Positions 47,288-64,000 of a DNA stretch of 64,000 nucleotides are shown one piece after another (the stretch's first letter is position 1; the number at the start of each line of letters is the position of its first letter). Where the stretch lies: positions 64,001 to 128,000 of IMG/VR virus record IMGVR_UViG_3300000203_000003; one strand, given 5' to 3'. The position numbers and the translations under genes are program-made. Under the pieces are notes generated by a model, which saw only the letters and a program-made list of their open reading frames with translations, did no database searches and had not been told where the DNA came from. The DNA is from a virus. Lineage: Duplodnaviria; Caudoviricetes.

Positions 47288-47776
47288 ATGGCAACTATAC
47301 TGGCAAGAAAAGTCCAGGACGAGATTCCAATTGCGACTGACGATGAGGCTGAAAGTCTACTTGTCGCAGATCCTACAGTAACCCAATTCTCGTCAAACTA
47401 CGGTTCCAATCAAGGAACCTCTTTCGGTTCTACATATAACAACAACCAATCAAATAGTTCGACCCCAGTGTTAACTGGTGCTGCACCGTCGAACGCCGCA
47501 TCAGGTGCTGACATTTTGGTAAAAGCAGACGAACACTGGATTAACAGACGCTGGCGCCCTGCAATGGGTTGGTTGTATATGGCAACTTGTCTGTTCGACT
47601 TCATCCTCTTTCCGATTCTATGGAGCATATTACAAGCACTGACAAAAGGATCGGTAACTATGCAATGGCAACCACTGACCTTGCAAGGTGCCGGTCTGTA
47701 TCACATCGCTATGGGCGCGGTGCTTGGCATCGCAGCATATGGCAGAACTCAAGAAAAGATTTCCGGATCCAATTGA
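47288..47776 (+). CDS. Holin (3TM/GTA-holin-like)
   Basis: WRPAMGWLY, TM helices, LGIAAYGRTQEK. Confidence 0.7.
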   Translation: MATILARKVQDEIPIATDDEAESLLVADPTVTQFSSNYGSNQGTSFGSTYNNNQSNSSTPVLTGAAPSNAASGADILVKADEHWINRRWRPAMGWLYMATCLFDFILFPILWSILQALTKGSVTMQWQPLTLQGAGLYHIAMGAVLGIAAYGRTQEKISGSN

Positions 47777-47806: not shown

Positions 47807-48595
47807 ATGGACCATTATAAAACGCTCGGCGTCACGAAGACTGCCACGCAAGACGAAATCAAATCTGCTTACCGAAAACTAGCAAGCAAGCACCACCCTG
47901 ATAAAGGTGGCAACACAGGTGAGTTTCAGAAGATTCAGACAGCATACGACATACTTGGTGACGCAGATAAGCGACAAGAATATGATAACCCTCGCCCTCA
48001 AATGGGCAGCGGCTTCCCAGGTGGATTCAACTTCGGTCACGGTGGCAATCCGTTTGAAGATATGATGAGCCAGATTCTCAGACAGCGGCACTCGCAGCCA
48101 CAACAGCAAGTATATCGAACGACTATCTGGATCTCATTGGAACAGGTGTATAGCGGCGCCGAGCAAATACTTCAACTACAAACACCAACTGGTACACAGA
48201 CTGCAAAAGTAGCAGTGCCAAAAGGGATTCAAGATGGTGGACAGGTCCGTTTAGAAAACATCATCGAAGGTGCCTCTCTGATAGCAGAGTTCCGAACTCA
48301 CCAGCATCTCAAGTATACACGACACGGGCAAGACCTGGTGTGTAATCAGCAGATATCAGTTCTGGATCTGATTGTGGGCACATCATTTGAGTTCCAGACT
48401 ATATCCGGTAAAACACTTGAGGTAACTATCCCACCCAAAACACAACCATATAACCAGATGAAGATAGCCGGTCATGGATTGCCGATTCCAAATAGTCCGG
48501 CGTTTGGTGACCAAATAATCTTGCTTAAACCATTCATACCTGTTACAATAGACGAATCGATAACTAACGCTATTTTGCAGGCCAAAGCAAAGTAA
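47807..48595 (+). CDS. dnaJ: DnaJ-class chaperone (J domain + C-terminal domain, no zinc finger)
   Basis: HPD motif, G/F-rich linker, VPKGI..G, GHGLP...GD. Confidence 0.9.
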   Translation: MDHYKTLGVTKTATQDEIKSAYRKLASKHHPDKGGNTGEFQKIQTAYDILGDADKRQEYDNPRPQMGSGFPGGFNFGHGGNPFEDMMSQILRQRHSQPQQQVYRTTIWISLEQVYSGAEQILQLQTPTGTQTAKVAVPKGIQDGGQVRLENIIEGASLIAEFRTHQHLKYTRHGQDLVCNQQISVLDLIVGTSFEFQTISGKTLEVTIPPKTQPYNQMKIAGHGLPIPNSPAFGDQIILLKPFIPVTIDESITNAILQAKAK

Positions 48596-48613
48596 ATATT
48601 TAAAAGGAAATAC

Positions 48614-50890: not shown

Positions 50891-51590
50891 GAGCAGAAAT
50901 AAACTATGGTACGGTAAATACACTTACCGTGCCAAGTTTACTTTAGTTGGAATCAATCGCACATACGCCTGTAAGACTTTCCTTCAGTTTTTAAAGAAAC
51001 TAGAACAAAATCTCAGCGATAAGCCAAACGCGCCTTGGGCATCGGAATGGCAAAGTAGACTTCAAAGAGAAATCAAAGAGGTTGAGTTAGATTCGATTGA
51101 GAACTATATCAACTGGCGCGCCAAGTTCACGGGGAAAGGTGGTCCTGCTCTGATTCGCTCAGAGAGTAATTCTGCCGCAGTGTTCAGTAATGATCTGGCT
51201 CTATTACAGACATTACAAAACATCGATCCTGATCTAATTATCATCTTTACCAGAGTTGATAACAATATCCCTGAGGGGCACAAGTATTACGCTAAAGAGC
51301 CACCTCACAAGTTTCGCGTATATTTACGATCAATGGATCTGAAAGAACTGCCGTCATTCAGACAAGACTTAAAAGAGTTTTTTGAGCGATACCTGAACAC
51401 AAAAACTGTAGTTGTTCCAAGCAGGGCCCTAACTCAATGGTTAAGACAGACTACCAGTTCTTGGCGTATGCGATATTGCTACGAACACTTCTATATAGAT
51501 TATGACAATCCAAGCACATATACGCTGATATCACTGATGTTTGGTGATATGCTCTCTGCAATGTATAAATTAGAAAAGCGCCCACAGTGA
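50880..51590 (+). CDS. Hypothetical protein
   Basis: TTG start after GGAG. Confidence 0.65.
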   Translation: MKVESRNKLWYGKYTYRAKFTLVGINRTYACKTFLQFLKKLEQNLSDKPNAPWASEWQSRLQREIKEVELDSIENYINWRAKFTGKGGPALIRSESNSAAVFSNDLALLQTLQNIDPDLIIIFTRVDNNIPEGHKYYAKEPPHKFRVYLRSMDLKELPSFRQDLKEFFERYLNTKTVVVPSRALTQWLRQTTSSWRMRYCYEHFYIDYDNPSTYTLISLMFGDMLSAMYKLEKRPQ

Positions 51591-51613
51591 TAAATACTTG
51601 AAGGAGTATTTAT
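51590..51613 (+). promoter_or_regulatory. Late promoter within SD-sequestering hairpin
   Basis: ATAAATACT-TGAAGG-AGTATTTAT. Confidence 0.6.
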
Positions 51614-51617
51614 TACC

Positions 51618-51782
51618 ATGGCTCAGATACAATCAGAAACAATCGTTATCACGTTTTCCAAGTTAGTCAAATCAGACGTAGGTGCTGACGCAATCACCAG
51701 CGAGGAAACAATTCTGGCACTTGAACAAGTCGCACAAGAGTTAGTCGCCGCTGGCGTAGTAGTTGAAGTGACAAAAGCATAA
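51618..51782 (+). CDS. 54-aa hypothetical protein (MAQIQSETIVITFSKLVK...)
   Basis: SD AAGGAG; TAATG overlap with next gene; below ORF-track cutoff. Confidence 0.7.
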   Translation: MAQIQSETIVITFSKLVKSDVGADAITSEETILALEQVAQELVAAGVVVEVTKA

Positions 51783-52150
51783 TGTCTCAATCTACGACAC
51801 TGATCCTGTTGCCACAGACGGTATACGACGGTGGCGCAAACTATGAAGCATATACTGTCACTGGAAATGCTCAACACGCCGCTGGTTATTATCTTGGCAA
51901 CCGTGATCTACAAACAGTAAGTCTGAGCCTGACTAATGTGACAGGTAACATCGTCATTGAAGCAAGTTTAGCAACGACACCCGGCGCTCTGGACTGGTTC
52001 AAAGTATACGAACTTGAAGCAAATAACACTTCAAACGTAAACGCCAATGCGTCTACTTACTCTAACATTGAAGGCAACTTTGTCCACATGAGAGCAAAGG
52101 TAGAAGGATTCTACAACGGCATCGTGAACTTCGTAAAACTTAGCTATTAA
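51782..52150 (+). CDS. Beta-rich hypothetical (likely virion) protein
   Basis: GNIVIEASL...DWF...GNFVHMRA. Confidence 0.6.
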   Translation: MSQSTTLILLPQTVYDGGANYEAYTVTGNAQHAAGYYLGNRDLQTVSLSLTNVTGNIVIEASLATTPGALDWFKVYELEANNTSNVNANASTYSNIEGNFVHMRAKVEGFYNGIVNFVKLSY

Positions 52151-52151
52151 A

Positions 52152-54569
52152 ATGAAAACAATCGTCGTAATGCCAGGAGGCTTTCATCCGTTTCACGCAG
52201 GACATTATGCTCTGTATAAATCAGCAGTGGAGGCCTTTCCCGGCGCTGATGTGTATGTCGCTGCAACAAACGATCAAAAAGCACGACCTTTCCCGTTTGC
52301 GATTAAAGAGAAACTTGCTAAGATAGCCGGCGTTGCTCCAGGACATTTCGTTCAGGTGTCAAGTCCATTCAAAGCAGCAGAGATAACTCAGCACTACAAC
52401 CCTGATCAGGATGTGCTGATCTTCGTCCGTTCAGAGAAGGACCGAAACGAACAACCTAAGCCCGGTGGCATGAAGAAGGACGGCACCCCATCTTACTTTC
52501 AGCCATATACAGGAAAAGGTATGCAGCCGTTCAGTAAACACGCTTACTTCGCCTATCTGCCTACGGTAGAGTTTGGTCCTGGCATCACCGGCGCAACAGA
52601 GATTCGCAATGCCTGGCCGACATTGAATCCTACTCGCAAGACAGCAATGGTTATGAGCCTGTATCCAGCAACGAAACAGAATCCTCAGCTGGCTGCGAAT
52701 GTAGTCAAGATGATGGATCTTGGCATGGGCGGCCAGCCCGAAGTGGATGAGAGTAAAGAGGAGGCACTTCAGTATGCTACTCAGGCTCATGCCGGACAAA
52801 CGAGAGCAGGTGGTGCTCCTTATATTTCACATCCGATAAGTGTAGCAGATTCAATCAAGCAATACAAGAAATCACACAACCTCGATGCGTTAATCAGTGC
52901 TGCACTATTACATGATACCGTAGAAGATACTGACACCACTCATGAAGCCCTACACGATTTATTCGGTGGTTTAGTTGCCTCACTAGTTCAAGAACTAACT
53001 AGCGACAAAGAGAAGATTCAACAAATGGGCAAAGCTGATTATCTGGCACAGAAAATGGCTGCTATGAGCAGTTATGCTCTGGTGATAAAACTTGCCGATC
53101 GACTCGACAATGTTCAAGATATTGCTACTGCTAAAACTCCAGAGTGGAGGGCGAAGTATAGGGCAGAAACTGAAAAGATTTTAGACTATATTGAAAAGCA
53201 TCGCGCCTTATCAGGAACGCACCAGAAGTTAATAGAACTTATCCGTAACAAGTTAGGCGAGATTGATAGTCATCAAGGTGTAACAGAAGACACCTCATCC
53301 TCAAGTCTTCCGGATGTTCTGTATCACGGTGGTGAACACCAGATAAGCAAGTTCAGAATTCCACCCTACGGTGTATTTTTCAGTCCCCATAAAGAATGGG
53401 CAGAGGAATACGGTGACGCGCTAACTACCGCAAAAGTCAACGCCACGAAAGTGTATGTCGCCGATTCTGATAACTGGAACGATCCAAACTCGTTTGACGC
53501 TAAAGTGCTTGACGCACTGTTTGACCGTGACTATAAAACTTTGGCAGTATGTGTCAAAGTATTACAGGCTCGAGGCTATCAGGCACTTCAAACGCAGACT
53601 GACAGCGAAATGGTTGTGGTGTTCCCGGGAACTGAGATTCAAGTATTACCGCCGGATGAAGGAGTTGAGTTAAAATTCAACTCAAATTCACTCAACGAAA
53701 GTCAAATCTATTCGTATTTTAAGAAGAAATATTCTCTCTACGAAAGTGAAAAATTCCCACAGAGAATGGTATCAAGTATTAAAAAGATAAATGAAACAGA
53801 CAACCATAATGAAATTAAACAATTTATCCATCGGGTTGAAACCTTTGACTATCCTGGTCGGATCAAAGTAGGAGATTCCTTGGCAGTTTTAGATTTTGAG
53901 ATAAACTTCGCCTGGAAAGAAATTGAAGGTCGTGGATTTACACAGGCAAAAAGAATAACAAAAATATCGGCTGATAGCGCCGGAATAAATTATATAGAAT
54001 TTGAAGACGGTGACCGATATCCTAGACTTGCAAAAGCAACGTTCGGAGATAAACAACGACCCATGGAATTTGCCGCGTATTTTAAAAAATCAAATGATGC
54101 GGAACACGCCATTACGGTATTAGGGTTGATCGTGCCCGATACATGGGAATACAATACCAGTGAAATTCAACGTGGCAACACTTCTGAAGTTGACGAACAA
54201 TTCACCACTAATCTGACAACCGAGGGTGACCTAAATGAACTCCATTCGGACACCTTACATAGTTATGCAGGAAAGGCATGTGACCGTAATACCAAGAGTA
54301 TTAGGCAAGCAGATTGGAAACGAACTACCCCGGATGAGAGAGAGAAGATTCACCAAAAAGTTCTAAGAAGATGTGACGGTATAGGAAGGGCTTTGGACAA
54401 GGATCATGCCAAGCAGGAGAATGAACTGTTGAAGAATATTCCACCTCATTTACGCAAAAAATTAAGGCTTCCTGAACCATATGTTGATGAAGGCTCGGAC
54501 ATCCAGTTGTCCAAACCAATCAAACCTTTCAATCAGGTTAAACAATATCCTCTGACCGCCCTGCTATAG
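52152..54569 (+). CDS. Multidomain protein: HxGH nucleotidyltransferase + SpoT/Mesh1-like HD hydrolase + ART-like + unknown domains
   Basis: GGFHPFHAGH; AHAGQTR..PYISHP, LHDTVEDT, KLADRLDN; VLYHGG..GVFFS. Confidence 0.8.
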   Translation: MKTIVVMPGGFHPFHAGHYALYKSAVEAFPGADVYVAATNDQKARPFPFAIKEKLAKIAGVAPGHFVQVSSPFKAAEITQHYNPDQDVLIFVRSEKDRNEQPKPGGMKKDGTPSYFQPYTGKGMQPFSKHAYFAYLPTVEFGPGITGATEIRNAWPTLNPTRKTAMVMSLYPATKQNPQLAANVVKMMDLGMGGQPEVDESKEEALQYATQAHAGQTRAGGAPYISHPISVADSIKQYKKSHNLDALISAALLHDTVEDTDTTHEALHDLFGGLVASLVQELTSDKEKIQQMGKADYLAQKMAAMSSYALVIKLADRLDNVQDIATAKTPEWRAKYRAETEKILDYIEKHRALSGTHQKLIELIRNKLGEIDSHQGVTEDTSSSSLPDVLYHGGEHQISKFRIPPYGVFFSPHKEWAEEYGDALTTAKVNATKVYVADSDNWNDPNSFDAKVLDALFDRDYKTLAVCVKVLQARGYQALQTQTDSEMVVVFPGTEIQVLPPDEGVELKFNSNSLNESQIYSYFKKKYSLYESEKFPQRMVSSIKKINETDNHNEIKQFIHRVETFDYPGRIKVGDSLAVLDFEINFAWKEIEGRGFTQAKRITKISADSAGINYIEFEDGDRYPRLAKATFGDKQRPMEFAAYFKKSNDAEHAITVLGLIVPDTWEYNTSEIQRGNTSEVDEQFTTNLTTEGDLNELHSDTLHSYAGKACDRNTKSIRQADWKRTTPDEREKIHQKVLRRCDGIGRALDKDHAKQENELLKNIPPHLRKKLRLPEPYVDEGSDIQLSKPIKPFNQVKQYPLTALL

Positions 54570-54633
54570 GGTAAATAGAAATATTTTGAGCCACTTTGGC
54601 CAGAGTAAATATTTCTATCTTACAGAGGATCTC

Positions 54634-55509
54634 ATGGCAAAGAAAAAAGAAGCAGCAACTATTCCAGTTGAAAAGTTACAAGAAATCGTAGAACAAAACC
54701 CAGCAGCACCGGTATCCGAACCTGCTCCCGGAACAGTACAAGTCAACGTAGACTTTCTGAAAACAACACGGGTTCACATTGGAATGCCATGTTATGGTGG
54801 TATGCTGACTGAATCTACATTCATGTCGTTTATCAAGTGGTCAAACACCGCACGACAGCTTGGCATCGATTGGACATTGGAAACAATGGTCAACGAATCG
54901 CTTATCTCTCGCGCACGAAACACACTGACAGCAAAGTTTTTGGACATGCCAGATGCCACTCACTTGTTCTTCGTTGACGCAGACATTGGTTGGGAACCAT
55001 GGCACCTGTTAGTTCTGTTGAATCGTGACGTTGACGTTATCGGTGGACTATATCCAATGAAGACAATGCCAGTCAAGTGGGTTGTTAATGGATTTGATGG
55101 TGCCGAAGAAGGACCTGATCAACTACAAGAAGTCAGCAAAGCGGGCACAGGCTTCCTGTTGATGAAGAAACACGTATTTGAGAAGTTGAAATCTCACCCG
55201 GCAGTAAAGCAATATGTGAACGATATCGGTCTTGATCCGAAATATGACAAACATCTGAAAACATATTTCGACACCGCAGTTCGTCAAAATCGTTACTATA
55301 GCGAAGACTGGTGTTTCTGTGAAAACTTTAGAGATATCGGCGGAAAAATTTGGATGGACAAACGAGTTCTGCTGCGTCACACCGGCACTTATACTTTCTG
55401 TATGGAAAATCAGGAACACTTGTTGAATACGATCGGACCCATGTATTTAGATCAACAGCGACAAAAAGGCTTCAAACTAATAGACCAAGACGGAAACGAG
55501 ATTAAGTAA
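54634..55509 (+). CDS. Glycosyltransferase-like (GT-A) protein
   Basis: IGMPCYGG, ISRARN, FFVDADI (DxD), GTGFLL, SEDW.FC. Confidence 0.75.
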   Translation: MAKKKEAATIPVEKLQEIVEQNPAAPVSEPAPGTVQVNVDFLKTTRVHIGMPCYGGMLTESTFMSFIKWSNTARQLGIDWTLETMVNESLISRARNTLTAKFLDMPDATHLFFVDADIGWEPWHLLVLLNRDVDVIGGLYPMKTMPVKWVVNGFDGAEEGPDQLQEVSKAGTGFLLMKKHVFEKLKSHPAVKQYVNDIGLDPKYDKHLKTYFDTAVRQNRYYSEDWCFCENFRDIGGKIWMDKRVLLRHTGTYTFCMENQEHLLNTIGPMYLDQQRQKGFKLIDQDGNEIK

Positions 55510-55523
55510 AGTCTTTATCAAAT

Positions 55524-55545
55524 AAAAGGCTCTTCGGAGCCTTTT
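55524..55545 (+). terminator. Intrinsic terminator
   Basis: AAAAGGCTC-TTCG-GAGCCTTTT. Confidence 0.85.
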
Positions 55546-55578
55546 CCTATCCTCGCAGTAATAGGACTAAATAATAGT

Positions 55579-56244
55579 ATGATTGCTTATTCTAAACTAA
55601 ATCCACCAACTGGCTTCTATGTATATATGTGGCTTCGGGAAGACCAGAGTCCATATTATGTAGGAAAAGGTATGACTCGCAGAGCTTGGCGATCAGGATC
55701 TCCAATTGATCAAACCCGCATTGTTATAGTTGAGCATATGCTCACTGAGGAGGAAGCGTTTAGTAAGGAACGACAACTCATTAAAGAGTACGGTCGTAAA
55801 GACCTCGGAACAGGCATATTAAGAAATATGACTGATGGCGGAGAAGGAGCATCAGGGCAGGTACAGACAATTGATACTATTGAAAAGCGACATAAAACAC
55901 GCAAAGAAAATGGAAATTGGGGCAACGCATCACTGATAGGTAGTAAACAAGCGGCGGAAGAAATATCCAGAAAAAGCGAAAGACAACGCGGTCAAAAACA
56001 TTCTCCTGAGCGTAATGCGAAGCGCAGTGCAGCATTGAAGGGTAGAAAGTTATCCCCTGAACATATAGCCAAGCGAACTGCTACGGTAACTGGCAGAAAA
56101 CAACGACCTGAAGTTATTGAAAACCGATCAGCGCAACTAAGAGGGCGAAAGCAAGAGGTGATAACTTGTCCACATTGTGGCAAATCCGGCGGGTGCGTAG
56201 TTATGAAGAGGCACCACTTTGACCATTGTAAATCTATCCGATAA
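55579..56244 (+). CDS. Free-standing GIY-YIG endonuclease (NUMOD3 repeats, CPHC knuckle)
   Basis: FYVYMWLRE..PYYVGKG; GRKDLGTGILRNMTDGGEG. Confidence 0.85.
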   Translation: MIAYSKLNPPTGFYVYMWLREDQSPYYVGKGMTRRAWRSGSPIDQTRIVIVEHMLTEEEAFSKERQLIKEYGRKDLGTGILRNMTDGGEGASGQVQTIDTIEKRHKTRKENGNWGNASLIGSKQAAEEISRKSERQRGQKHSPERNAKRSAALKGRKLSPEHIAKRTATVTGRKQRPEVIENRSAQLRGRKQEVITCPHCGKSGGCVVMKRHHFDHCKSIR

Positions 56245-56251
56245 ATACTTG

Positions 56252-57511
56252 ATGGATCTCAAAGAACTCGACTCATTTAAACTGGCAGACGCAGTGACTT
56301 TTCACACGGAACTGAACCCTAAACTTTTCAGAGGTCGTCACCTACATCCTGAAGTTGAAAAGCAACTGAAAATCATCGCTGAAGATTTCATTGAAGAAAT
56401 GGGTCTGTCTGATATTAACGTGGTTGATATCACAATCTCCGGTTCAAACGCAGCATACAGTTATACGAAACACTCTGATCTAGATTTACATCTACTTGTG
56501 GATATGTCGAAGTTAAATAATGACGCAATGTATCTGGAGTTGTTTGATGCGAAAAAGACAATCTATAACGACACACACGACATAACAATCAGACACATTC
56601 CAGTTGAGTTGTACATTCAGGATTCAAATCATCAGGTTACAAGCGTCGGTGAGTATAGTATTCTGCGTGATGAGTGGATCAGAATCCCAAGTAAGCGTAG
56701 AGCAAACTTCGATCAAACAGCAACGGCTGCGAAGTATGAAAAACTGTCGAAGTTGATAGACAGAGCGTTGAAAACATCTGACCTGAATAAGATAAATCAT
56801 CTGATCAAAACAATACATCGCTACAGACAAGCAGGGCTTGACCAAGGCGGCGAGTTCGGACCAGAGAATCTTGCATACAAAGCAATACGAACAACTGGCC
56901 AGATCACTAAGCTGTATGCTCTGCGAGATAAACTTCATTCCAGAAGATTGAGTATCGAGGGACAGTATTCTCAATTGGAAGAATCAACGTCTACTCTTCC
57001 TAAAGTATTGTATCATGTGACTCCGGCGAAGAATCTGCCTGGCATAATGAGTAAAGGGTTGATACCGAAAGTAGGAAGTAGATCAGCACAAATATACAAC
57101 GAACAATCTGGTATATTCTGTTTCCCCGATAAGGTATCAGTCGAAGATGCGCTGATGAATTGGTTAGGTGATCAGTTCGATGAGAATGAAACTCTGGCAC
57201 TACTGGCTATAGATTCGACAGGACTACAAGGTAAATATACTCCTGGTGCAGAATATGAAGTTGTGATTACTTCTCCGGTCCCAGTCAGTAATATAAGTGT
57301 CGCATCAAAAGATGTAGACGCGATGTTTGAATCAGCATCAGGTTACATCCCAAGCAACGCTCAAAAGAATGATCCAAGATACAAAACAGCGTTAACTGTA
57401 GATATCAAGCCGGATACGATCCAAGTAAATGCTAAAAAATTAGGGTTAGGTGGAATAAAAAGATCAGGAATTCCTCAGTTTGCCCGGGCCGATGGCAAAA
57501 CAAAAAGATAA
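56252..57511 (+). CDS. Pol-beta-type nucleotidyltransferase fused to ART/Tpt1-like domain
   Basis: GSNAAYSYTKHSDLDLH..VELY; LYHVTPAKNLPGIMSKGL.P. Confidence 0.75.
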   Translation: MDLKELDSFKLADAVTFHTELNPKLFRGRHLHPEVEKQLKIIAEDFIEEMGLSDINVVDITISGSNAAYSYTKHSDLDLHLLVDMSKLNNDAMYLELFDAKKTIYNDTHDITIRHIPVELYIQDSNHQVTSVGEYSILRDEWIRIPSKRRANFDQTATAAKYEKLSKLIDRALKTSDLNKINHLIKTIHRYRQAGLDQGGEFGPENLAYKAIRTTGQITKLYALRDKLHSRRLSIEGQYSQLEESTSTLPKVLYHVTPAKNLPGIMSKGLIPKVGSRSAQIYNEQSGIFCFPDKVSVEDALMNWLGDQFDENETLALLAIDSTGLQGKYTPGAEYEVVITSPVPVSNISVASKDVDAMFESASGYIPSNAQKNDPRYKTALTVDIKPDTIQVNAKKLGLGGIKRSGIPQFARADGKTKR

Positions 57512-57585
57512 ATAGTAGTGTAGTTCGCGGAAGTGGAATTCCCAACTACTCTAATGCCCAAGGAGCAATCAGCATGACTATTTAT
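57508..57585. ncRNA. Conserved two-hairpin endonuclease-associated element, copy E
   Basis: See findings. Confidence 0.7.
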
Positions 57586-58245
57586 TATCTTATGGTTAAG
57601 ACCCATAATATTACCGGTTTAAAATATCTTTGTCAGACAAAACGCAAAGACCCACACAAATATCTCGGATCCGGTAAAGATTGGTTGATCCATCTCATGC
57701 GTCACGGAAAAGAACATTCAACTGAAATTATTATTGCCTGTCAGAGCAGACAGGAACTGTACTATTGGGGAATGTATTATAGTAGCCTATGGAGGGTAGT
57801 AACCGGCCAGGATGATTTCGGCAATAAAATATGGGCTAACCGGATTAAAGAAAACGGCGGGGGCGAAGGTATGACTTCGGCGCTAGCCACTGAAATTCAA
57901 AATAGGCCGGCTACAAAACTTAAAAATTCAGATTCCCACAAAATGTTATGGAAAAATAAAGAATATATTAAAAAGCAAATAGATGCCCACCAATCCATAG
58001 ATTATCGCACTCGGAATAGCGTACTTCAAAAAGAAGTACAAAATAGACCCGAAGTTAAAGAAAAGTTGAGTGGCAAAAATAGTTACAAATACGATCATAC
58101 AATTTACACCTTCATCCACACTACAGGGATTATAGAAACGTTAACTCAATACGACCTAATTAGGAAATATGATCTATGTCAGCCAAATTTAAATTCAGTT
58201 GTCCGTAATAAAAGACGAATACACAAAGGCTGGACGATAGCATAA
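57574..58245 (+). CDS. Free-standing Seg-like GIY-YIG endonuclease (paralog of 42102)
   Basis: First 27 aa identical to ORF 42102; YDHTIYTF..KGW module. Confidence 0.75.
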   Translation: MTIYYLMVKTHNITGLKYLCQTKRKDPHKYLGSGKDWLIHLMRHGKEHSTEIIIACQSRQELYYWGMYYSSLWRVVTGQDDFGNKIWANRIKENGGGEGMTSALATEIQNRPATKLKNSDSHKMLWKNKEYIKKQIDAHQSIDYRTRNSVLQKEVQNRPEVKEKLSGKNSYKYDHTIYTFIHTTGIIETLTQYDLIRKYDLCQPNLNSVVRNKRRIHKGWTIA

Positions 58246-58322
58246 CCATAATCCGCCCTTGCTTCGAAAATAAACTCTCTTTAAACCAATTTTGATAAAT
58301 AGTATATAAGTGGAAATATACT

Positions 58323-60425
58323 ATGCAAATCAAACACCTCGAAGAATGTTCAACAACTGCAGGCGCTGTAGCAACATTCGCTCAACCATTTGAAACCGTT
58401 CAAAAGCGCACTCCGGAGAAGAAACTTAAAGGTAGCAATCTACTCAAAGGTATCAAAACTTCAGCGAAGTATGCTAACAGCCTACACGAAGGCGAGGGTT
58501 TCCCGCATGATGTAGATCACATGCCCGGTCAAACTATCAAACACCAGAATACAAACTGCACTGCTTGTCATGGTCGCAAGGTGCAGTATAAACTCGGTGG
58601 CAAACTATACCCAGACAATAAGAAAGGTGCCACTAAAGTTATATGCCCAACTTGCAACGGTACCGGTGATAAGGAGCATACCGACACAGAAGATGGCCGC
58701 AATTATGCTAATGCGTTTGGTACATACCAGTATGAGTCAGTCGAAGAAGGCGCCAAGGTAGATCGCATGGTCGGTCATGTCAAATCAAGCGAGAAGAAAC
58801 TTGGCAAGTCCTCGAAAGAAGCAGAAAATATCGCCTGGGCAACCGCCAACAAGCGTGGTATGCTTGATAACAAGAATAAGAAGGTGGCGGAAGGCTTCTC
58901 TAATGATATGTCTACAGAAGATATGATTGCGTATCTAAGACAGCACCACGATGAGAATCTACACCCCGATTATCTAAATCATCTTACTAATACGAACAGC
59001 AAGTTTGTGCTAAAAAATATCCCACTAAATTCCATCAGAACTGAATTGTCAGGATTAGATAGAACAAAAGTAGAGCAATACAAAAAGATGGACTTTAGCA
59101 AGGCTCCCCCTATAGTAGTTGGTAGTGATGGTAATATATTAGATGGCTATCACAGAGCCAATGTAGCAAAAGCATTAGGGATCTCTACTATTAAAGCCTA
59201 TGTTGGCATTAAAGGTCAGCAAGGTGTGGCGGAAGCAGACGATAAAAAAGAATGGCAAAAACAAAATGCTAAACCAAAACAGTTAGGAAAAACTGAAAAG
59301 TATTTCTCTACGAGACATACTACTAAAGATACTGGCGCAGCCGACAAAGAGCAAGGTGTGGCGGAAGGCTCCATATCTGATTTGTTGAACAAGGATCCTA
59401 CATCTCCAAAATTTAACGACCATTCAGCACCACGCAAAACAAAACATTCTGGTAGCACCCCGACCCCATATGAGCAAGGCAGATTAGATGCCCACAGAAA
59501 AAAGTCATATAACAATATCCACAACAGCGAACAGGATGCAGAAGATTATAAAACTGGATATAGACACGTTAAATCTAGGCAAGGTGTGGCGGAAGCAAAT
59601 ACACTACCAGCAGGACAGGCTGTTGCAGCACAACCTCAAGCAGGTAAGAAGTCTGGCCCGATAAACATGGTGGGCCCTGATAAGAACAAGCACGTAGATG
59701 TTAGTGCTAATCCTTCTGTGGCACAATCTAATGACCCGGAATTAAGACGCAAATCTGAGTGGGCGCAGCGACACTACGGTGCTACTCTAAGCCCTGATGA
59801 AGCCATGAACAAGTGGATGCAGCGAGGACTAGACATTACTGAAAAGAACGATAAGCGCCACGACGCAGAGATTGCCAAACTGATGAAAGAAATAGCCGGC
59901 CTTAAACGTATCATTAATAACCTGCACCCGGCGGCAACCGGAGCATCTAACGTTGCTGAAGGTGAAATCACAGAAGATGATGTAGTTCTATCTGCTGACC
60001 GTCGTCGCCCTAAATCAGGACTGCTATCTAAACCAGAGCAGGCGATGAACCCCGCTGATGTGGTGAAGCTTGACGTTCCATTGCTGATCAGACTGCTTGA
60101 GTTTGCCAAGGAAGATGCGGCTGACGATATGGCTCTACATGATCTTGCTGAAAAGCTAGTAGCAGGTTGCCAACGTGGCAGAACTCTGACAATGAAAGAC
60201 TATGATAGTCTTGTCCCTTCAACACCAGAAGCACCTGGCCCAGATGAACAGGAGGACTTCGAAGGCAAGTTCAATCAAGAGATGGATGAAATCAGTGATC
60301 CCGCAGTAAAGAGTTATCTTGGCAAAGCAATGACTGATACACTCACAGGTAAGAAAGATCGTAATTCTGGTATGAAACGTGCGATTAGCAGGTTAGCTGG
60401 GACAAATAAACCACTGACTAAATAA
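58323..60425 (+). CDS. Modular protein: Zn-finger, ParB/Srx-like domain and small modules joined by (QG)VAE linkers
   Basis: CTACHG..CPTCNG; PPIVV..ILDGYHRA; repeated GVAE[AG]. Confidence 0.7.
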   Translation: MQIKHLEECSTTAGAVATFAQPFETVQKRTPEKKLKGSNLLKGIKTSAKYANSLHEGEGFPHDVDHMPGQTIKHQNTNCTACHGRKVQYKLGGKLYPDNKKGATKVICPTCNGTGDKEHTDTEDGRNYANAFGTYQYESVEEGAKVDRMVGHVKSSEKKLGKSSKEAENIAWATANKRGMLDNKNKKVAEGFSNDMSTEDMIAYLRQHHDENLHPDYLNHLTNTNSKFVLKNIPLNSIRTELSGLDRTKVEQYKKMDFSKAPPIVVGSDGNILDGYHRANVAKALGISTIKAYVGIKGQQGVAEADDKKEWQKQNAKPKQLGKTEKYFSTRHTTKDTGAADKEQGVAEGSISDLLNKDPTSPKFNDHSAPRKTKHSGSTPTPYEQGRLDAHRKKSYNNIHNSEQDAEDYKTGYRHVKSRQGVAEANTLPAGQAVAAQPQAGKKSGPINMVGPDKNKHVDVSANPSVAQSNDPELRRKSEWAQRHYGATLSPDEAMNKWMQRGLDITEKNDKRHDAEIAKLMKEIAGLKRIINNLHPAATGASNVAEGEITEDDVVLSADRRRPKSGLLSKPEQAMNPADVVKLDVPLLIRLLEFAKEDAADDMALHDLAEKLVAGCQRGRTLTMKDYDSLVPSTPEAPGPDEQEDFEGKFNQEMDEISDPAVKSYLGKAMTDTLTGKKDRNSGMKRAISRLAGTNKPLTK
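59219..59595 (+). repeat. Three identical 17-nt dispersed repeats GCAAGGTGTGGCGGAAG (59219, 59351, 59579)
   Basis: Seen directly; partial copy AAGGTGGCGGAAGG at 58881. Confidence 0.9.
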
Positions 60426-60429
60426 TCGT

Positions 60430-62253
60430 ATGAGAGCATTAGAGTTTTTAAACGAAATAGCAATGAATCCGAACTCCCTGAGAAGGGACGCCGAGAAGAT
60501 CAACGCCATGGCAGGCATGGAGTTTGAGATGTATGTCCCGAACGCAGGTGGGCCAGACAATGACTACGAATCTGTGCCTGACTATAGTATGGATGAGCAG
60601 GCCAATGATATAGACTATATCATCCGCTTCTTTAACGGCGGCGATGGCTACAATGATCGTAGAGATTTAGCAATGCTGCGTGACGAACTTGAAGATGCTT
60701 ACTCTGAATGGGGCATGGAGCAACAATCTGAACAGTGGCACCAAGAAGGTAAAGAACTGCTGAAAACATACATGGAAGAAAATGATTGGGACGCCGACGA
60801 AGCAATCGATCAAGCAATGAATGATCTTGGATTCACCGCAGAAGAAAAAGACGAAGCCAAAGACGGTGGAGACTCTGCAAAAGGCATACAGACAAGTAAA
60901 GAGTTACCTGATACGCCGGCGTATCATAACTGGGTCCGAGCCGTTACCGTTGCTGAAGAAGCATTTGATGAAAAAGTAGAAGAAGAATGGGACTCTCAAG
61001 GCAGGTTATATGACAAGGCCCGTGAAGAATGGGAAAATGATTGGGAATGTCCTGATCAACGTGACTTCCTACGTGATAACAACCTCCGTCGCATGAGTGA
61101 TGTGGAAAATAACTACACTATTACATGGCCGTATCGCACCGCGCCTGAAGCCGGTGAGCTTGACATGGATTCAGTCGGTGAGATGTTCAGCAAAGCAATG
61201 GGTAAGAAAGTCATAACCGGTGGATATCATCGTGCCGGTCGTTCTCCAACTGCATACTCACTTGAACCGGACGGAAGTCTTGACTCACCGAATGAACCTG
61301 AAGATGGTGGTCTGGAATTCATCAGTCCGCCGATGTCTATCCCTGATATCATCGCTGATCTGAAGAAAGTTAAAGCATGGGCAGATGAGACCGGTTGCTA
61401 CACAAACGAATCAACCGGTCTTCACATCAATGTCAGCGTGCCTCAAGGTGCCGACAGAGACTATGTTAAACTTGCTCTGTTGCTCGGAGATGATTACATA
61501 CTTGAACAATTCGGGCGTGAAGCAAACACATTCTGTAAGTCAGCACTGGCCAAAGTAAAGCAATACGCAATGACACGTGATGCAGATGCCAAAGCAGTTC
61601 TGGAAAAGATGCGTTCAGGTCTTGACAAGTTTGCGTCAAAAGCAATTCACAGTGGCAACACAGACAAATACATCAGCATCAACAACAAAGGTGACTACAT
61701 TGAGTTCAGATCGCCCGGCGGCGATTGGTTAGATGATAACTTCGACAAGATTGAAAATACGTTGTTGAGAACTGTAGTTGCGCTTGACGCCGCAAGTGAT
61801 CCACAGAAGTATCGCAAAGAATATCTGAAGAAGCTGTACAAGATCCTGGCCCCAAAGGGTGAAGGCGATCCGATTGGTATCTTCGCCAAGTATGTCGCCG
61901 GTGATATGCCAGCAGCCGCCCTAAAAAGCTTCATCAAGCAGGTACAGCTACAAAGAAATATTAAGAAACAGGGCCCCGAAGTAGCAGCGCCGGCTGCTAG
62001 CATCAGAACACGCTCCGGTTATCTGACTCCTAATCAAGATTGGGAACCTGAAACAACTCAACCCGGCACTACGCCTGGTATGGTCCCGTGGGCGCTTGTT
62101 AATCGTAATACCGGTGAACACATTGGCGAACCATTTATGGCGCCACCGGGCGCCGTAAACGCCGGCGCATATGACCGAGCGATTGAGATAGTAAATCAAA
62201 TGGGACTAACACCGGAGCAACGACGGGAACTCATCGTTCAACCGGCAGACTAA
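60430..62253 (+). CDS. Putative amidoligase (COOH-NH2 ligase family)
   Basis: GMEFE, EPDGSL, GLEFISP, TNESTGLHINV, KY.SIN, IEFRSPGG. Confidence 0.8.
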   Translation: MRALEFLNEIAMNPNSLRRDAEKINAMAGMEFEMYVPNAGGPDNDYESVPDYSMDEQANDIDYIIRFFNGGDGYNDRRDLAMLRDELEDAYSEWGMEQQSEQWHQEGKELLKTYMEENDWDADEAIDQAMNDLGFTAEEKDEAKDGGDSAKGIQTSKELPDTPAYHNWVRAVTVAEEAFDEKVEEEWDSQGRLYDKAREEWENDWECPDQRDFLRDNNLRRMSDVENNYTITWPYRTAPEAGELDMDSVGEMFSKAMGKKVITGGYHRAGRSPTAYSLEPDGSLDSPNEPEDGGLEFISPPMSIPDIIADLKKVKAWADETGCYTNESTGLHINVSVPQGADRDYVKLALLLGDDYILEQFGREANTFCKSALAKVKQYAMTRDADAKAVLEKMRSGLDKFASKAIHSGNTDKYISINNKGDYIEFRSPGGDWLDDNFDKIENTLLRTVVALDAASDPQKYRKEYLKKLYKILAPKGEGDPIGIFAKYVAGDMPAAALKSFIKQVQLQRNIKKQGPEVAAPAASIRTRSGYLTPNQDWEPETTQPGTTPGMVPWALVNRNTGEHIGEPFMAPPGAVNAGAYDRAIEIVNQMGLTPEQRRELIVQPAD

Positions 62254-62254
62254 T

Positions 62255-62641
62255 ATGAGAGCCACAGAGTTTCTATCCGAGAGTCAGCAAACAACGCTGA
62301 ATGATTTATACGACAGTGATCTTCCGGGGCGCGATGAATCTCTATGGGATGAGATAGGAACAATGGATCTTGACACGCCGTTGATGATTCATACGATGCC
62401 CCGATACAAAATAGAAATCATGTTGCTTGGTCAATACCGGGTCGAGCACCTTGATGAAATTGTTGACATGATGGCCCCGGATCAGAAAGAAATTCTTGAA
62501 CGCTACATGAATGATCCAACATTAGCTGACAAAGTTATTGTGATATCTGAGCATAGGATCATCGACGGCAATCATCGTGCGTTGGCAGCAGCATATAAAG
62601 GCACTTCGATTAAATACATTGATCTATCAGAACTACAATGA
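62255..62641 (+). CDS. ParB/Srx-like domain protein
   Basis: IIDGNHRALAA; N-terminus MRATEFLSE. Confidence 0.7.
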   Translation: MRATEFLSESQQTTLNDLYDSDLPGRDESLWDEIGTMDLDTPLMIHTMPRYKIEIMLLGQYRVEHLDEIVDMMAPDQKEILERYMNDPTLADKVIVISEHRIIDGNHRALAAAYKGTSIKYIDLSELQ

Positions 62642-64000
62642 GAGCCCATATATTTCTATACGAAACAATAGATCCTACAAGAGAGGATCTGGTCAGCGTG
62701 GCTCAATGGCTACACGCCGAACCTGATCAGATTGAAGTTCATATCAAGCATGAACCTATTGACAAGTTCCTGGGTCAGATCAAAGAGATGCACGGAACCT
62801 TCAATGAGTTTCCCAAAGACGAACGGCGAACAAACAAGATTCTTCGTCTGTTGAAACAAGGTGCCACTCCGATGCCAATGTATGTGGAGCAGGGCGATCC
62901 TGATCTATTCGTCATGGAAGGTCGCCATCGTATGGTTGCGTTCTGGCTCGCCGGAATGAAGACAGTTCCCGTGGCGTATGCGTCAAAGAAGTTAGACGAA
63001 ACAATAAATCCTGATATTCTTAATAAAAAATTCAATCATACTCAAGAGATTGGTGATTATACTTACAAAGCGTCAGTTGAGATATTTATGGATGAACCAT
63101 TGTTGAACATTAAAGCATATGATGGTAATAAAGAAATAGGTCAAATATTGTTTCAAATATTTGACTGGGAAGATGATACGAACGATGGATACATGGAAAG
63201 TGGCGGCACTGAAGTTGATCCAAAATATAGAAATAAAGGTGTAGCATCCACTATGTATGCGTATGCGAAGATGTTGGGCAATGATATAAGACCTAGTTTT
63301 CAACGAACTACAGCGGGTAGAGGAATGTGGGACGCATGGCAAAAGTCAGGTGATGATAAACATCTCGTCGCTGAGGATTCCTATAGTCCGCCAACACTAC
63401 ACACCGGTGACAAAATTTTGAAGGGAAAATTTAAGAACAGTCCTGCTGAGATTAAAGGCTTCGGTAAGGACAAACATAACCAGCCAACCTTGCGGACAAA
63501 TAAAGGTGACATACAGTTGTTCAAGCCTCGAGTGGTTAAACTTATGCCGGATAAATTAGATGAATACGAGCGTGATACTCCCAACAGCAGACAAATCTTC
63601 TCCAAGTTAGAAGGGCTCGGATACAAGAAGTTAGGTCACGGTGCTGACGCCACAGTGTGGGCGAAGGATGATAATCATGTCATCAAGATTCTGATGCCCA
63701 GACGCACTTTGCCAAGTGATGTCACCAATGCTGAAAAAGGCTTTATGACCTTTTATGAATTCTGTAAAAAGCATCCGGAGTTACCTAATCTGCCGCGATT
63801 TATTGATATTGGTGGGCAAGGAACTACTGTGTTTGAAATTAACGGGACGCCGTATAGACAAATCGCAATGGAACGACTGTTGCCGATTCCAGACAAAAGC
63901 TTTGAGCAACGCATAGTGTGGTTGCTGAGTGATCTAGCAAAGATCAGAGCGCCCTGGAGCAATGTAGTCAGCATGTTGAAGAAGCCGGGTACTTGGCCTC
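62638..64000 (+). CDS. Multidomain protein (truncated by window end): ParB-like + GNAT acetyltransferase + small domain + protein-kinase-like
   Basis: Manually translated, open to window end: MRAHIFLYE; VMEGRHR; VDPKYRNKGVAS; LGHGADATVW..VIKI..PNLPRF..IAMERL. Confidence 0.8.
   Translation, partial: MRAHIFLYETIDPTREDLVSVAQWLHAEPDQIEVHIKHEPIDKFLGQIKEMHGTFNEFPKDERRTNKILRLLKQGATPMPMYVEQGDPDLFVMEGRHRMVAFWLAGMKTVPVAYASKKLDETINPDILNKKFNHTQEIGDYTYKASVEIFMDEPLLNIKAYDGNKEIGQILFQIFDWEDDTNDGYMESGGTEVDPKYRNKGVASTMYAYAKMLGNDIRPSFQRTTAGRGMWDAWQKSGDDKHLVAEDSYSPPTLHTGDKILKGKFKNSPAEIKGFGKDKHNQPTLRTNKGDIQLFKPRVVKLMPDKLDEYERDTPNSRQIFSKLEGLGYKKLGHGADATVWAKDDNHVIKILMPRRTLPSDVTNAEKGFMTFYEFCKKHPELPNLPRFIDIGGQGTTVFEINGTPYRQIAMERLLPIPDKSFEQRIVWLLSDLAKIRAPWSNVVSMLKKPGTWP

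What the first reader, a model, noticed from the sequence alone, without database searches (positions are those of the whole stretch)
52152..64000. Cluster of putative capsid-packaged, protease-processed effector polyproteins
Seen: consecutive late genes string together unrelated enzyme domains, and the recognisable domain junctions carry [LVI]-x-E. In 52152: NTase-EVDE|HD hydrolase-GVTE|ART-like-SLNE|. In 56252: NTase-QLEE|ART-like. In 58323: HLEE|, SLHE|, SVEE|, VAE| x5. In 62638: FLYE|ParB-KLDE|GNAT-LVAE|small domain-KLDE|kinase. N-termini MRALEFLNE, MRATEFLSE, MRAHIFLYE and MQIKHLEE resemble the T4 internal-protein capsid-targeting sequence (MKTYQEFIAE). Established: T4 gp21 protease cleaves after E in [IL]-x-E and removes that leader; 'polyvalent' phage proteins with ART/GNAT/ParB/NTase domains are known. 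Inference: the phage loads polyproteins into the head, cuts them into individual enzymes during maturation, and injects a host-takeover/anti-defence cocktail.
Basis: partly seen in the sequence, partly recalled or inferred. Interest (0 to 1): 0.85.

Follow-up and report, generated by a model that had tools for sequence, protein, structure and literature searches.

The report
Protease-jointed phage capsid cargo polyproteins
An uncultured giant T4-like phage puts a T4-style "load me into the head" tag on many unrelated enzymes and strings enzyme modules into long chains. The chains are joined at the cutting motif of its head protease, so they are probably packed into the capsid, cut apart and delivered with the DNA, though nobody has measured this.

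Summary
The window is part of a 142-kb fragment of a ~350-kb T4-superfamily jumbo myovirus. Genes at 52152, 56252, 58323, 60430, 62255 and 62638, plus two just past the window, encode mosaics of NTase, HD, ART/Tpt1-like, amidoligase, GNAT, kinase-like, ParB-like and zincin modules. A 9-residue leader, M-[RK]-x-x-x-[FIL]-[ILV]-x-E, occurs almost only at ORF N-termini (61 of 65 six-frame matches) and heads at least 17 unrelated protein families.

[LVIM]-x-E is not denser in these proteins than elsewhere. It does sit exactly where homology between related phages breaks. Complete relatives carry a T4-type prohead protease and a capsid protein with four [LI]-x-E sites in its first 43 residues.

Published data add support. 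In cyanophage S-CREM2, the only four ORFs with a T4-like leader were all found in virions by mass spectrometry, as was a homologue of the 56252 NTase module.

The commonest joint, QGVAEG, is also fixed as DNA. An exact 17-mer built from rare codons lies in over 100 unrelated contexts, which suggests it also serves as a recombination joint.

Packaging, cleavage and injection remain inferred. This scan reached the same reading on at least eight other genomes.

The parts
51589..51596 (+). Late-promoter-like box GATAAATA ahead of the 51618-51782-52152 gene string
   Evidence: [GCT]ATAAATA lies within 45 nt upstream of this string, of 56252, 58323 and 64325, and also of tail tube and other tail genes
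52152..54569 (+). 805-aa mosaic protein with no N-terminal leader: cytidylyltransferase-like NTase (1-200), HD_4 phosphohydrolase (205-343), ART-PolyVal-like domain (387-493), unassigned C-terminal modules
   Evidence: Pfam. The NTase module alone is shared with 14 related contigs, and homology ends at residues 195-206
52740..52751 (+). Joint EVDE200, between NTase and HD
   Evidence: Homology blocks end at 192-206. The G001 orthologue has QQGLAE at the same place and differs after it
53277..53288 (+). Joint (Q)GVTE379, between HD and the ART-like domain
   Evidence: Lies between the Pfam envelopes HD_4 205-343 and ART-PolyVal 387-493. Matches QG[VLIM]xE
53688..53699 (+). Joint SLNE516, after the ART-like domain
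   Evidence: Supported by position only: no homology breakpoint falls here
56252..57511 (+). 419-aa protein: Pol-beta-type NTase (18-236), Tpt1/KptA-like ART-fold domain (about 247-356), conserved C-terminal ASGYIPS module. GATAAATA lies just upstream
   Evidence: The NTase module is 30% identical (E 7e-33) to S-CREM2 gp156, a protein detected in virions
56972..56983 (+). Joint QLEE, residues 241-244 counted from ATG 56252
   Evidence: Six homology blocks end exactly here. AlphaFold pLDDT is below 50 over 234-246. Stand-alone S-CREM2 gp156 ends 8 residues earlier, at the aligned LSIE
57320..57331 (+). Joint AMFE, before the C-terminal ASGYIPS module
   Evidence: Eleven homology blocks start one residue after it. 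pLDDT is below 50 over 357-368
58294..58301 (+). Late-promoter-like box GATAAATA ahead of 58323
58323..60425 (+). 700-aa chain of small modules: 8-aa leader MQIKHLEE, conserved head module, CxxCxGxG zinc ribbon, 45-aa basic module, ParB-like module, then four more modules
   Evidence: The Atlas model has mean pLDDT 0.49, as expected for beads on a string
58749..58883 (+). Very highly conserved 45-aa basic module (GAKVDRMV...NKNKK)
   Evidence: Found 57 times in the related proteins. All 46 distinct upstream contexts end in Glu, and 35 of them have V/I/M/L at P3. 23 of 25 internal copies are followed by [VLIM]xE within 6-8 residues, while C-terminal copies simply stop
58884..58892 (+). Joint VAE190
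   Evidence: 48 homology blocks end at 187-191
59226..59234 (+). Joint (QG)VAE304, encoded GGT GTG GCG GAA
59358..59366 (+). Joint (QG)VAE348, the canonical 17-nt DNA joint
59586..59594 (+). Joint (QG)VAE424
   Evidence: The module between 348 and 424 recurs in G001 between QGVEE and QGVAE
59952..59960 (+). Joint (N)VAE546, written with ordinary codons GTT GCT GAA
60430..62253 (+). 607-aa protein: leader MRALEFLNE plus an Amidoligase_2 core
   Evidence: Orthologues in G001, Atu_ph07 and RsoM2USA pass Pfam PF12224 (30-40 bits against a cut-off of 22). Atlas score 0.96. The Atu_ph07 homologue lies two genes from the portal gene, on the opposite strand
62255..62641 (+). 128-aa protein: leader MRATEFLSE plus a ParB-like module (DGNHR)
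62638..64000 (+). 521-aa protein that runs to 64203, past the window end: leader MRAHIFLYE, ParB-like module, KLDE121, GNAT, LVAE246, small module, KLDE309, kinase-like domain
   Evidence: Homology blocks start or end at 118/120, 247 and 305/309. The small module 248-305 recurs right after the N-terminus of another protein

Best explanation
These late genes encode cargo for the phage head. A 9-residue N-terminal leader, M-[RK]-x-x-x-[FIL]-[ILV]-x-E, is a variant of the T4 capsid targeting sequence. It recruits each product into the assembling prohead core. When the T4-type prohead protease (Peptidase_S77) is activated, it removes the leader and cuts the chains after Glu at hydrophobic-x-Glu joints between modules; the commonest joint is QG-V-A-E|G.

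This frees separate enzymes and small basic peptides inside the capsid: NTases, an HD hydrolase, ART/Tpt1-like domains, an amidoligase, GNATs, a kinase-like domain, ParB-like modules and a zincin. They leave with the DNA at infection and act on the host before any phage gene is expressed.

The same joints, partly fixed as an exact 17-nt DNA word, let related phages swap, drop and reorder modules in frame.

Shown here: the leader is a portable N-terminal signal; the joints sit at module boundaries; the protease and protease-type sites occur in the head proteins of complete relatives; there is a link to published virion proteomics. Inferred: loading, cutting, ejection and what the enzymes do.
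For: 1. The phage belongs to the T4 superfamily. The tail sheath is about 45% identical to those of Atu_ph07 and PA5oct. Complete ~350-kb relatives encode Peptidase_S77 and a Gp23-type capsid protein.
2. Their capsid protein has LLE7, LLE19, ILE34 and LAE43 ahead of the part that aligns with mature T4 gp23. Their scaffold protein carries LVAE|G, FVAE|S and KLAE|S.
3. The leader is position-specific and portable: 61 of 65 six-frame matches are at ORF N-termini, covering 53 distinct proteins in at least 17 unrelated families, and its codons vary. The T4 CTS is MKTYQEFIAE (PMC8442874). T4 gp21 cuts after L/I-X-E (PMC9026906).
4. Joints mark module boundaries. Homology-block ends peak on P1 Glu. 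The logo at breakpoints ending in Glu is G/Q at P4, L/V/M/I at P3 in 58%, and G/A/D/S at P1'.
5. The basic module carries a joint only when something follows it.
6. In the zincin model (pLDDT 81.8), the only segment below 50 is residues 68-72, at the conserved KL[DH]E joint. Both joints of the 56252 protein lie in low-pLDDT segments.
7. Late-promoter-like boxes are shared with tail genes.
8. Published mass spectrometry on S-CREM2 (PMC10665884, Table 3). A genome-wide six-frame scan finds the T4-like 10-residue leader on only four ORFs, gp6, gp13, gp14 and gp154, and all four are among the 52 virion proteins out of about 219 (hypergeometric p about 0.003; the pattern was defined after seeing them). 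gp156, a homologue of the 56252 NTase module, is also in the virion.
Against: - This phage has no proteome, and its contig lacks the head genes.
- No cleavage at an internal joint has been observed in any relative. The S-CREM2 paper reports presence, not processing.
- T4 internal proteins are cut once next to the CTS (PMC8442874), not into many pieces.
- The 52152 protein has no leader, and the 56252 protein has at best a 5-residue one (MDLKE).
- Overall [LVIM]xE density is ordinary.
- The commonest joint is conserved as DNA with rare codons. A DNA-level process therefore contributes to its recurrence.
- A conserved zincin is encoded in the cluster and is fused inside polyproteins of other contigs.
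- The 56252 model has low confidence overall (pLDDT 60).
Confidence: 0.6

Rival explanations
1. The joints are mainly recombination joints and flexible linkers, and they are not cleaved. The proteins work as intact polyvalent proteins, whether packaged or not. The fixed DNA word lets modules be exchanged in frame by microhomology.
For: - The exact 17-mer CAAGGTGTGGCGGAAGG occurs in at least 120 IMG/VR stretches. In the 80 fetched, 102 of 103 copies are in frame as QGVAEG within long ORFs, in 102 different flanking contexts.
- 20 of 25 QGVAEG sites use GTG GCG, codons with 11% and 8% usage.
- Module content differs between syntenic orthologues exactly at the joints.
Against: - About two thirds of VAE joints are written with ordinary and varied codons, so the peptide itself is also kept.
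- P1 Glu is invariant in 46 of 46 contexts before the basic module while P2 and P3 vary.
- A joint is present only when another module follows.
- The motif equals the T4 protease rule and recurs in the capsid propeptide and scaffold of relatives.
- The two roles do not exclude each other.
Confidence: 0.2
2. The chains are cut, but by the zincin metallopeptidase encoded in the cluster (64325-64900, just past the window) or by another peptidase, before packaging or after injection. This is what was proposed for MPTase domains of polyvalent proteins.
For: - The 191-aa protein has an invariant HExxH plus a downstream Glu in 15 of 15 homologues.
- Its C-terminal domain resembles minimal zincins (abylysin, selecase, Wss1, SPRTN). 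The matches are weak: E 0.3-0.7, prob 0.9+.
- It is the most conserved leader-bearing protein and is fused inside polyproteins elsewhere.
- Iyer et al. 2017 proposed embedded peptidases for such release (PMC5512222).
Against: - No zincin of this kind is known to prefer hydrophobic-x-Glu, whereas that is the documented rule of T4-type prohead proteases (PMC9026906).
- The zincin itself carries the leader and an internal joint, so it looks like cargo.
- The same motif occurs in the capsid propeptide and scaffold.
Confidence: 0.1
3. These are ordinary cytoplasmic late or auxiliary enzymes. The N-terminal motif serves something else, such as translation initiation, a degron for the neighbouring ClpA-like unfoldase, or localisation. 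The hydrophobic-x-Glu matches at boundaries merely reflect linker composition.
For: A ClpA-like AAA+ protein and a DnaJ-like protein are encoded just upstream. Overall motif density is ordinary. No head genes lie nearby on this contig.
Against: - Leader codons vary while the peptide is kept.
- In S-CREM2, all four ORFs that bear a T4-like leader are virion proteins.
- A homologue of one module is a virion protein.
- Homology-block ends peak sharply on P1 Glu.
Confidence: 0.08

Closest known systems
Phage T4 internal proteins IPI, IPII, IPIII and Alt, with the capsid targeting sequence and gp21 processing
   Same: A short N-terminal leader ending in hydrophobic-x-Glu (T4: MKTYQEFIAE; here MRAxEF[LI]xE). 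A T4-type Peptidase_S77 protease in the clade. Late genes. Variable, unrelated cargo behind a shared leader, including an ADP-ribosyltransferase-fold enzyme (PMC8442874, PMC9026906, PMC3012670).
   Different: The leader here is 9 residues with Arg-Ala at positions 2-3. Much of the cargo is long chains of several enzymes and small modules with repeated internal joints, whereas T4 internal proteins are cut once. The main joint is also fixed as a 17-nt DNA word. Nothing has been shown experimentally.
Polyvalent proteins of phages and conjugative elements (Iyer, Burroughs, Anand, de Souza, Aravind 2017; PMC5512222)
   Same: Several unrelated conflict-type domains (ART, kinase, ParB, GNAT, NTase, metallopeptidase) in one polypeptide, predicted to travel with the DNA and to be released by proteolysis.
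   Different: That work proposes release by embedded MPTase-type peptidases. It describes no targeting leader and no shared joint motif. Here the joints follow the prohead-protease rule, and the matches to the PolyVal Pfam families are sub-threshold.
Ejection and inner-body proteins of phiKZ, 201phi2-1 and SPN3US, processed by a gp21-like protease
   Same: Many head-internal proteins cut after Glu at short motifs by a diverged T4-type prohead protease, with propeptides acting as targeting signals (PMC5694885, PMC9026906).
   Different: Those phages use [S/A/G]-x-E and long propeptides of 100 residues or more, and removal of the propeptide leaves one mature fragment. Here P3 is hydrophobic as in T4, the leader is 9 residues, and the cuts would separate independent modules.
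Virion-associated enzymes of T4-like cyanophage S-CREM2 (PMC10665884)
   Same: SAM hydrolase, an APH-like kinase, a cytidylyltransferase and hypothetical proteins were found in virions by mass spectrometry. Four of them start MK[DNR][FL]xxFL[ET]E, and gp156 is a homologue of the 56252 NTase module.
   Different: That paper does not mention a leader or processing in the passages read. The leader has 10 residues as in T4, and those proteins are mostly separate genes.
Conserved pre-toxin joints of polymorphic toxins, such as VENN in CdiA (from my own knowledge, not checked here)
   Same: A short, sharply bounded motif, conserved as DNA as well as peptide, marks where variable modules are exchanged by recombination.
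   Different: A different system in bacteria, with secretion rather than encapsidation, no relation to a capsid protease, and one joint per protein rather than many.

Membership tests
T4-type capsid-targeted internal proteins (CTS cargo) | Short N-terminal leader ending in a gp21-type site ([L/I]-x-E) on otherwise unrelated proteins | tested here: met
   M-[RK]-x-x-x-[FIL]-[ILV]-x-E heads 53 distinct proteins in at least 17 families. 61 of 65 matches are N-terminal. The leader has 9 residues against 10 in T4.
T4-type capsid-targeted internal proteins (CTS cargo) | The phage encodes a T4-type prohead protease (Peptidase_S77) and a Gp23-type capsid protein with a cleavable propeptide | tested here: inconclusive
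   Absent from the 142-kb contig, which is 41% complete. Present in three complete relatives that share the cluster. The capsid N-terminus carries four [LI]xE sites.
T4-type capsid-targeted internal proteins (CTS cargo) | Late expression together with head genes | tested here: inconclusive
   A [GCT]ATAAATA box lies upstream of the cargo genes and of tail genes. Exact TATAAATA is not enriched. No transcript data are available.
T4-type capsid-targeted internal proteins (CTS cargo) | Protein is physically inside the capsid and the leader is removed | not testable with these tools
   Only indirect evidence: S-CREM2 virion mass spectrometry for leader-bearing proteins and for a homologue of the NTase module.
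Polyvalent proteins (Iyer et al. 2017) | Two or more unrelated effector-type domains in one polypeptide of a phage or conjugative element | tested here: met
   NTase + HD + ART-like; NTase + Tpt1-like; ParB-like + GNAT + kinase-like.
Polyvalent proteins (Iyer et al. 2017) | Membership of the PolyVal domain families (ART-PolyVal, Kinase-PolyVal, MPTase-PolyVal) | tested here: inconclusive
   ART-PolyVal scores 27.8 bits against a cut-off of 31.2, and Kinase-PolyVal 13.9 against 27. The zincin did not hit MPTase-PolyVal.
phiKZ-type processed ejection / inner-body proteins | Cleavage motif [S/A/G]-x-E and long N-terminal propeptides | tested here: not met
   P3 at joints is L/V/M/I in 58% of breakpoint sites. 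The leader has 9 residues.
Amidoligase_2 (PF12224), for the 60430 protein | Pfam model match above the gathering score | tested here: inconclusive
   The window protein itself gives no hit at E 0.1. Its 52%-identical G001 orthologue and the Atu_ph07 and RsoM2USA homologues score 30-40 bits against a cut-off of 22. Atlas score 0.96.
Tpt1/KptA-like ART fold, for 56252 domain 2 | Fold match to solved Tpt1/KptA structures | tested here: met
   Foldseek E 1e-4 to 1e-3, prob 1.0, about 24% identity over 112 columns. The model has modest confidence (pLDDT 60 overall, 75-87 in this domain). Catalytic residues were not checked.

The most novel reading that the evidence does not exclude
The QGVAEG joint is a dual-coded plug-and-play element. 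As peptide it is a prohead-protease site. As an exact 17-nt DNA word (CAAGGTGTGGCGGAAGG, written with rare codons) it is kept uniform across many uncultured phages, because it is the microhomology, or recognition site, through which cargo modules are exchanged in frame. That would make it a dedicated cassette-exchange system for capsid-delivered effectors. The alternative is that the RNA word itself has a function, such as pausing ribosomes at module boundaries.
Probability: 0.35. Interest if true: 0.8.

Novelty: new variant of a known kind. Interest (0 to 1): 0.68.

Why it matters
If true, the T4 capsid targeting sequence is not a peculiarity of T-even phages. It would be the visible tip of a widespread cargo system in T4-superfamily phages, including jumbo phages and cyanophages. 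In that system a short tag and a protease joint let a phage load, separate and deliver an easily exchangeable set of enzymes that act before any phage gene is transcribed.

This gives a simple sequence rule for finding injected host-takeover and anti-defence proteins in uncultured phages. It explains why enzymes such as kinases, SAM hydrolase and nucleotidyltransferases appear in virion proteomes. It also offers natural leader and linker parts for packaging foreign proteins into phage heads. The DNA-level conservation of the joint points to a mechanism of modular evolution that can be tested.

Tried and rejected
- Megablast of the region against the phage collection: no match.
- tblastn of the 700-aa protein against phages: no match.
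- Searches of the window's own contig for Peptidase_S77, Gp23 and Portal_T4: none found. The one Gp23 hit is a short mimic outside the region.
- Exact TATAAATA: not enriched in the window. The looser ATAAATA box was used instead.
- Pfam on single modules: nothing for the 45-aa module, the ParB-like modules or four other modules.
- Profile of the three ParB-like modules against PDB sequences: only a non-significant SbnI hit, E 0.6.
- 62638 protein (carries the kinase-like domain) against the S-CREM2 gp14 kinase: no significant similarity.
- NTase of 52152 against the cyanophage cytidylyltransferases: only the HxGH region aligns, E 0.003-0.004. No orthology is claimed.
- Foldseek on the zincin model: no hit at E 0.001 or better. 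The top weak hits are all minimal zincins.
- The idea that generic [LVI]xE density marks these proteins: rejected, because density is ordinary.
- S-SCSM2R virion data: say nothing about its mosaic ORF117.
- Complex prediction: not run. The binding partner of the leader is unknown, and a leader of 9 residues is below the tool's chain length.

Full report
**What the DNA is.** The window is bases 64001-128000 of a 141,978-bp IMG/VR contig judged 41% complete. Its tail sheath is about 45% identical to those of Agrobacterium phage Atu_ph07 and Pseudomonas phage PA5oct. It also encodes tail tube proteins, a clamp loader and a ClpA-like AAA+ protein. Three complete relatives of about 350 kb (G001, G002, G003) were reached through homologues of the 700-aa protein. 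The cluster is syntenic with G001 at 183-201 kb. The window's own contig has no prohead protease, capsid or portal gene. All three relatives carry one Peptidase_S77 and one Gp23-type capsid gene. This is a T4-superfamily jumbo myovirus.

**The observation.** The second gene does start at ATG 56252.

Domain calls:
- The cytidylyltransferase-like NTase and the HD_4 domain pass Pfam. ART-PolyVal is just under its cut-off.
- The 56252 protein has a Pol-beta NTase signature. Its AlphaFold model matches Tpt1/KptA structures in the second domain.
- GNAT is borderline, the kinase call is weak, and ParB rests on a DGxHR-type motif only.
- The 607-aa protein is an amidoligase through its orthologues.
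- Two more leader-bearing genes lie just past the window end: a 191-aa zincin and a 283-aa GNAT-like protein.

**The leader.**
- Nine ORFs of the contig start with M-[RK]-x-x-x-[FIL]-[ILV]-x-E, and 58323 carries an 8-residue variant (MQIKHLEE). All but three of these lie in or next to this cluster.
- Over the contig, G001 and 80 related loci (1.65 Mb, six frames) the pattern occurs 65 times, 61 of them within 25 codons of an upstream stop.
- The 53 distinct proteins fall into at least 17 families once the first 12 residues are removed.
- Codons for the conserved residues vary, so the peptide is what is kept.
- The T4 capsid targeting sequence is MKTYQEFIAE (PMC8442874). It is cut by gp21 after L/I-X-E (PMC9026906).
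- Freshwater cyanophage S-SRM01 carries MKNFHQFITE on a cytidylyltransferase, an intermediate form.

**The joints.** Overall [LVIM]xE density in the five proteins is 1.4-2.0 per 100 residues ([LIV]xE across the contig: 1.35), so density alone shows nothing. Position does.
- I ran an all-against-all BLAST of 1,156 proteins from the contig, G001 and the loci. I recorded where a homology block stops although both proteins continue.
- Right ends pile up on the Glu of [VLIM]xE: 152 at offset 0 and 105 at +1, against about 25 at neighbouring offsets.
- With the very common basic module excluded, 22% of right ends have Glu at the end or one before, against 9.6% expected.
- The logo at these breakpoints ending in Glu is G/Q at P4, L/V/M/I at P3 (58%), D/E/A/K/N at P2 and G/A/D/S at P1'.
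- In the window's proteins the blocks end at EVDE200, QLEE, AMFE, SLHE56, SVEE142, VAE190, VAE304, VAE546, KLDE121, LVAE246 and KLDE309.
- The NTase of 52152 is joined to quite different partners in 14 contigs, always breaking at residues 195-206.
- QG[VLIM]xE is nearly confined to these proteins: 8 of the 9 in the whole G001 proteome lie in three adjacent genes.

**The 45-residue basic module.**
- Residues 143-187 of the 700-aa protein are 73-93% identical in the contigs where the match is confined to this module.
- In all 46 distinct contexts the residue before it is Glu, with V/I/M/L at P3 in 35.
- When the module ends a protein, the chain stops after NKNKK.
- When something follows, 23 of 25 distinct cases have [VLIM]xE within 6-8 residues.
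- A site that appears only where a further module has to be released is what a cleavage site predicts.

**Structure.**
- The zincin model (15 sequences, pLDDT 81.8) has one segment below 50: residues 68-72. This is the invariant K-L-x-E followed by a linker of variable length.
- In the weaker model of the 56252 protein (pLDDT 60), both joints fall in segments below 50.

**The protease side.**
- The capsid protein of G002 has LLE7, LLE19, ILE34 and LAE43 upstream of the stretch that aligns with residue 15 onward of mature T4 gp23.
- The scaffold protein next to the protease carries LVAE|G, FVAE|S and KLAE|S.
- So the clade's head proteins use the same hydrophobic-(Ala)-Glu sites as the cargo joints.

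**Timing.** A [GCT]ATAAATA box lies within 45 nt upstream of the 51618-52152 string, 56252, 58323 and 64325. It also precedes the leader-bearing 20188/20718 pair and the mosaic 620-aa protein after the terminase, as well as tail tube and other tail genes. This is motif evidence only.

**A link to experiment.**
- The virion proteome of T4-like cyanophage S-CREM2 lists 52 proteins. They include a SAM hydrolase (gp6), an APH-like kinase (gp14), a cytidylyltransferase (gp154) and several hypothetical proteins (PMC10665884, Table 3).
- gp6, gp13, gp14 and gp154 start MK[DNR][FL]xxFL[ET]E.
- A six-frame scan of the whole 174,876-bp genome finds that pattern on these four ORFs only.
- Four of four among 52 of about 219 proteins gives p of about 0.003. 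The pattern was written after I had seen them.
- gp156 (6 peptides) is 30% identical, E 7e-33, to the NTase module of the 56252 protein. It ends at the residue aligned with LSIE, 8 residues before the QLEE joint.
- S-CREM2 has a T4-type head protease.
- In the passages read, the paper mentions neither a leader nor processing.

- QGVAEG is written CAA GGT GTG GCG GAA GGN at 20 of 25 distinct sites, although GTG and GCG have 11% and 8% usage.
- GGTGTGGCGGAAGG occurs 44 times on the coding strand and never on the other.
- In the 80 stretches fetched, 102 of 103 copies are in frame inside long ORFs (median 542 codons), in 102 different flanking contexts.
- About two thirds of VAE joints use ordinary, varied codons.
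- The simplest reading is two constraints on one site: a peptide site, and a DNA word kept uniform by, and serving, recombination between joints. A role for the RNA word cannot be excluded.

**Rivals.**
- The joints may be linkers and recombination points that are never cut.
- The cluster's zincin may do the cutting, as Iyer et al. proposed for polyvalent proteins (PMC5512222).
- The proteins may be cytoplasmic.
- The first two rivals are compatible with packaging.
- The third is weakened by the S-CREM2 data.

**Known and new.**
- The T4 CTS, gp21 specificity, packaged Alt and polyvalent proteins are established.
- In the library searched, I found no paper describing CTS-like leaders outside T-even phages together with multi-module chains jointed at prohead-protease sites.
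- This scan reached the same reading on at least eight other genomes. Those are unchecked AI notes, not independent evidence.
- New here are the genome-wide S-CREM2 test, the virion homologue of one module, and the DNA-level joint.
- I class it as a new variant of a known kind. I put 0.6 on loading plus prohead-protease cutting, and well above that on the anatomy.

Noticed in passing
window 59349-59365 and 59577-59593; loci L114-L193: The exact 17-mer CAAGGTGTGGCGGAAGG (QGVAEG, written with rare codons GTG GCG) occurs in at least 120 IMG/VR stretches. 102 of 103 fetched copies are in frame in long ORFs, with entirely different flanks.
   Followed up: partly
window 58749-58883: A 45-residue lysine-rich module (GAKVDRMV...AENIAWATANKRGMLDNKNKK) is 73-93% identical in the contigs where the match is confined to it, and the Atlas holds clusters of ~50-residue stand-alone proteins as unverified leads. 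It has no Pfam family. Its fold weakly resembles Rho_N-type helical hairpins.
   Followed up: partly
window 47807-50890: A DnaJ-like protein (262 aa) and a ClpA-like double AAA+ unfoldase (758 aa, Clp_N + AAA + AAA_2 + ClpB_D2-small) lie directly upstream of the cargo cluster. A GTA-type 3-TM holin-like protein is at 47288-47776.
   Followed up: no
L097:18995-19858 (G001): A leader-bearing protein (MRATDFIIE) carries a GH19 muramidase. Its twin-arginine-like signal (weak TAT_signal hit, E 0.052, below cut-off) begins right after a KVLE joint, so cleavage there would expose an export signal at the new N-terminus.
   Followed up: no
G000:C1:24230-26092 (L109:4230-6092) and L111:3353-5527: A 620-aa mosaic protein right after the terminase gene carries IAE|G twice, LAE|V, VAE|A and GVAE|D. 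Cultured cyanophage S-SCSM2R has a 724-aa mosaic (ORF117) between its terminase subunits that shares at least three modules with the neighbouring G001 polyproteins (one with the 503-aa protein, two with the 1004-aa protein).
   Followed up: partly
window 55579-56244 and 57574-58245: Two homing-endonuclease-like genes interrupt the cargo cluster. The second is preceded by the ~80-nt cassette reported in other findings on this genome.
   Followed up: no
window 25040-35737: A 3565-aa ORF between tail genes and a lysozyme has no Pfam match at all.
   Followed up: no
G000:C1:20718-21481: Two tandem small paralogues (127 aa each; MRAHEFITE and MRASEFINE) sit between a late-promoter box and the terminase gene. 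They resemble T4 internal-protein genes in size and position. The second was missed by a greedy ORF call.
   Followed up: partly
window 54586-55509: A 307-aa protein (phrog_1574; its likely true start is ATG 54634) is 87% identical in G001. It has no leader and no joints, so it is a conserved non-mosaic gene embedded in the mosaic cluster.
   Followed up: no
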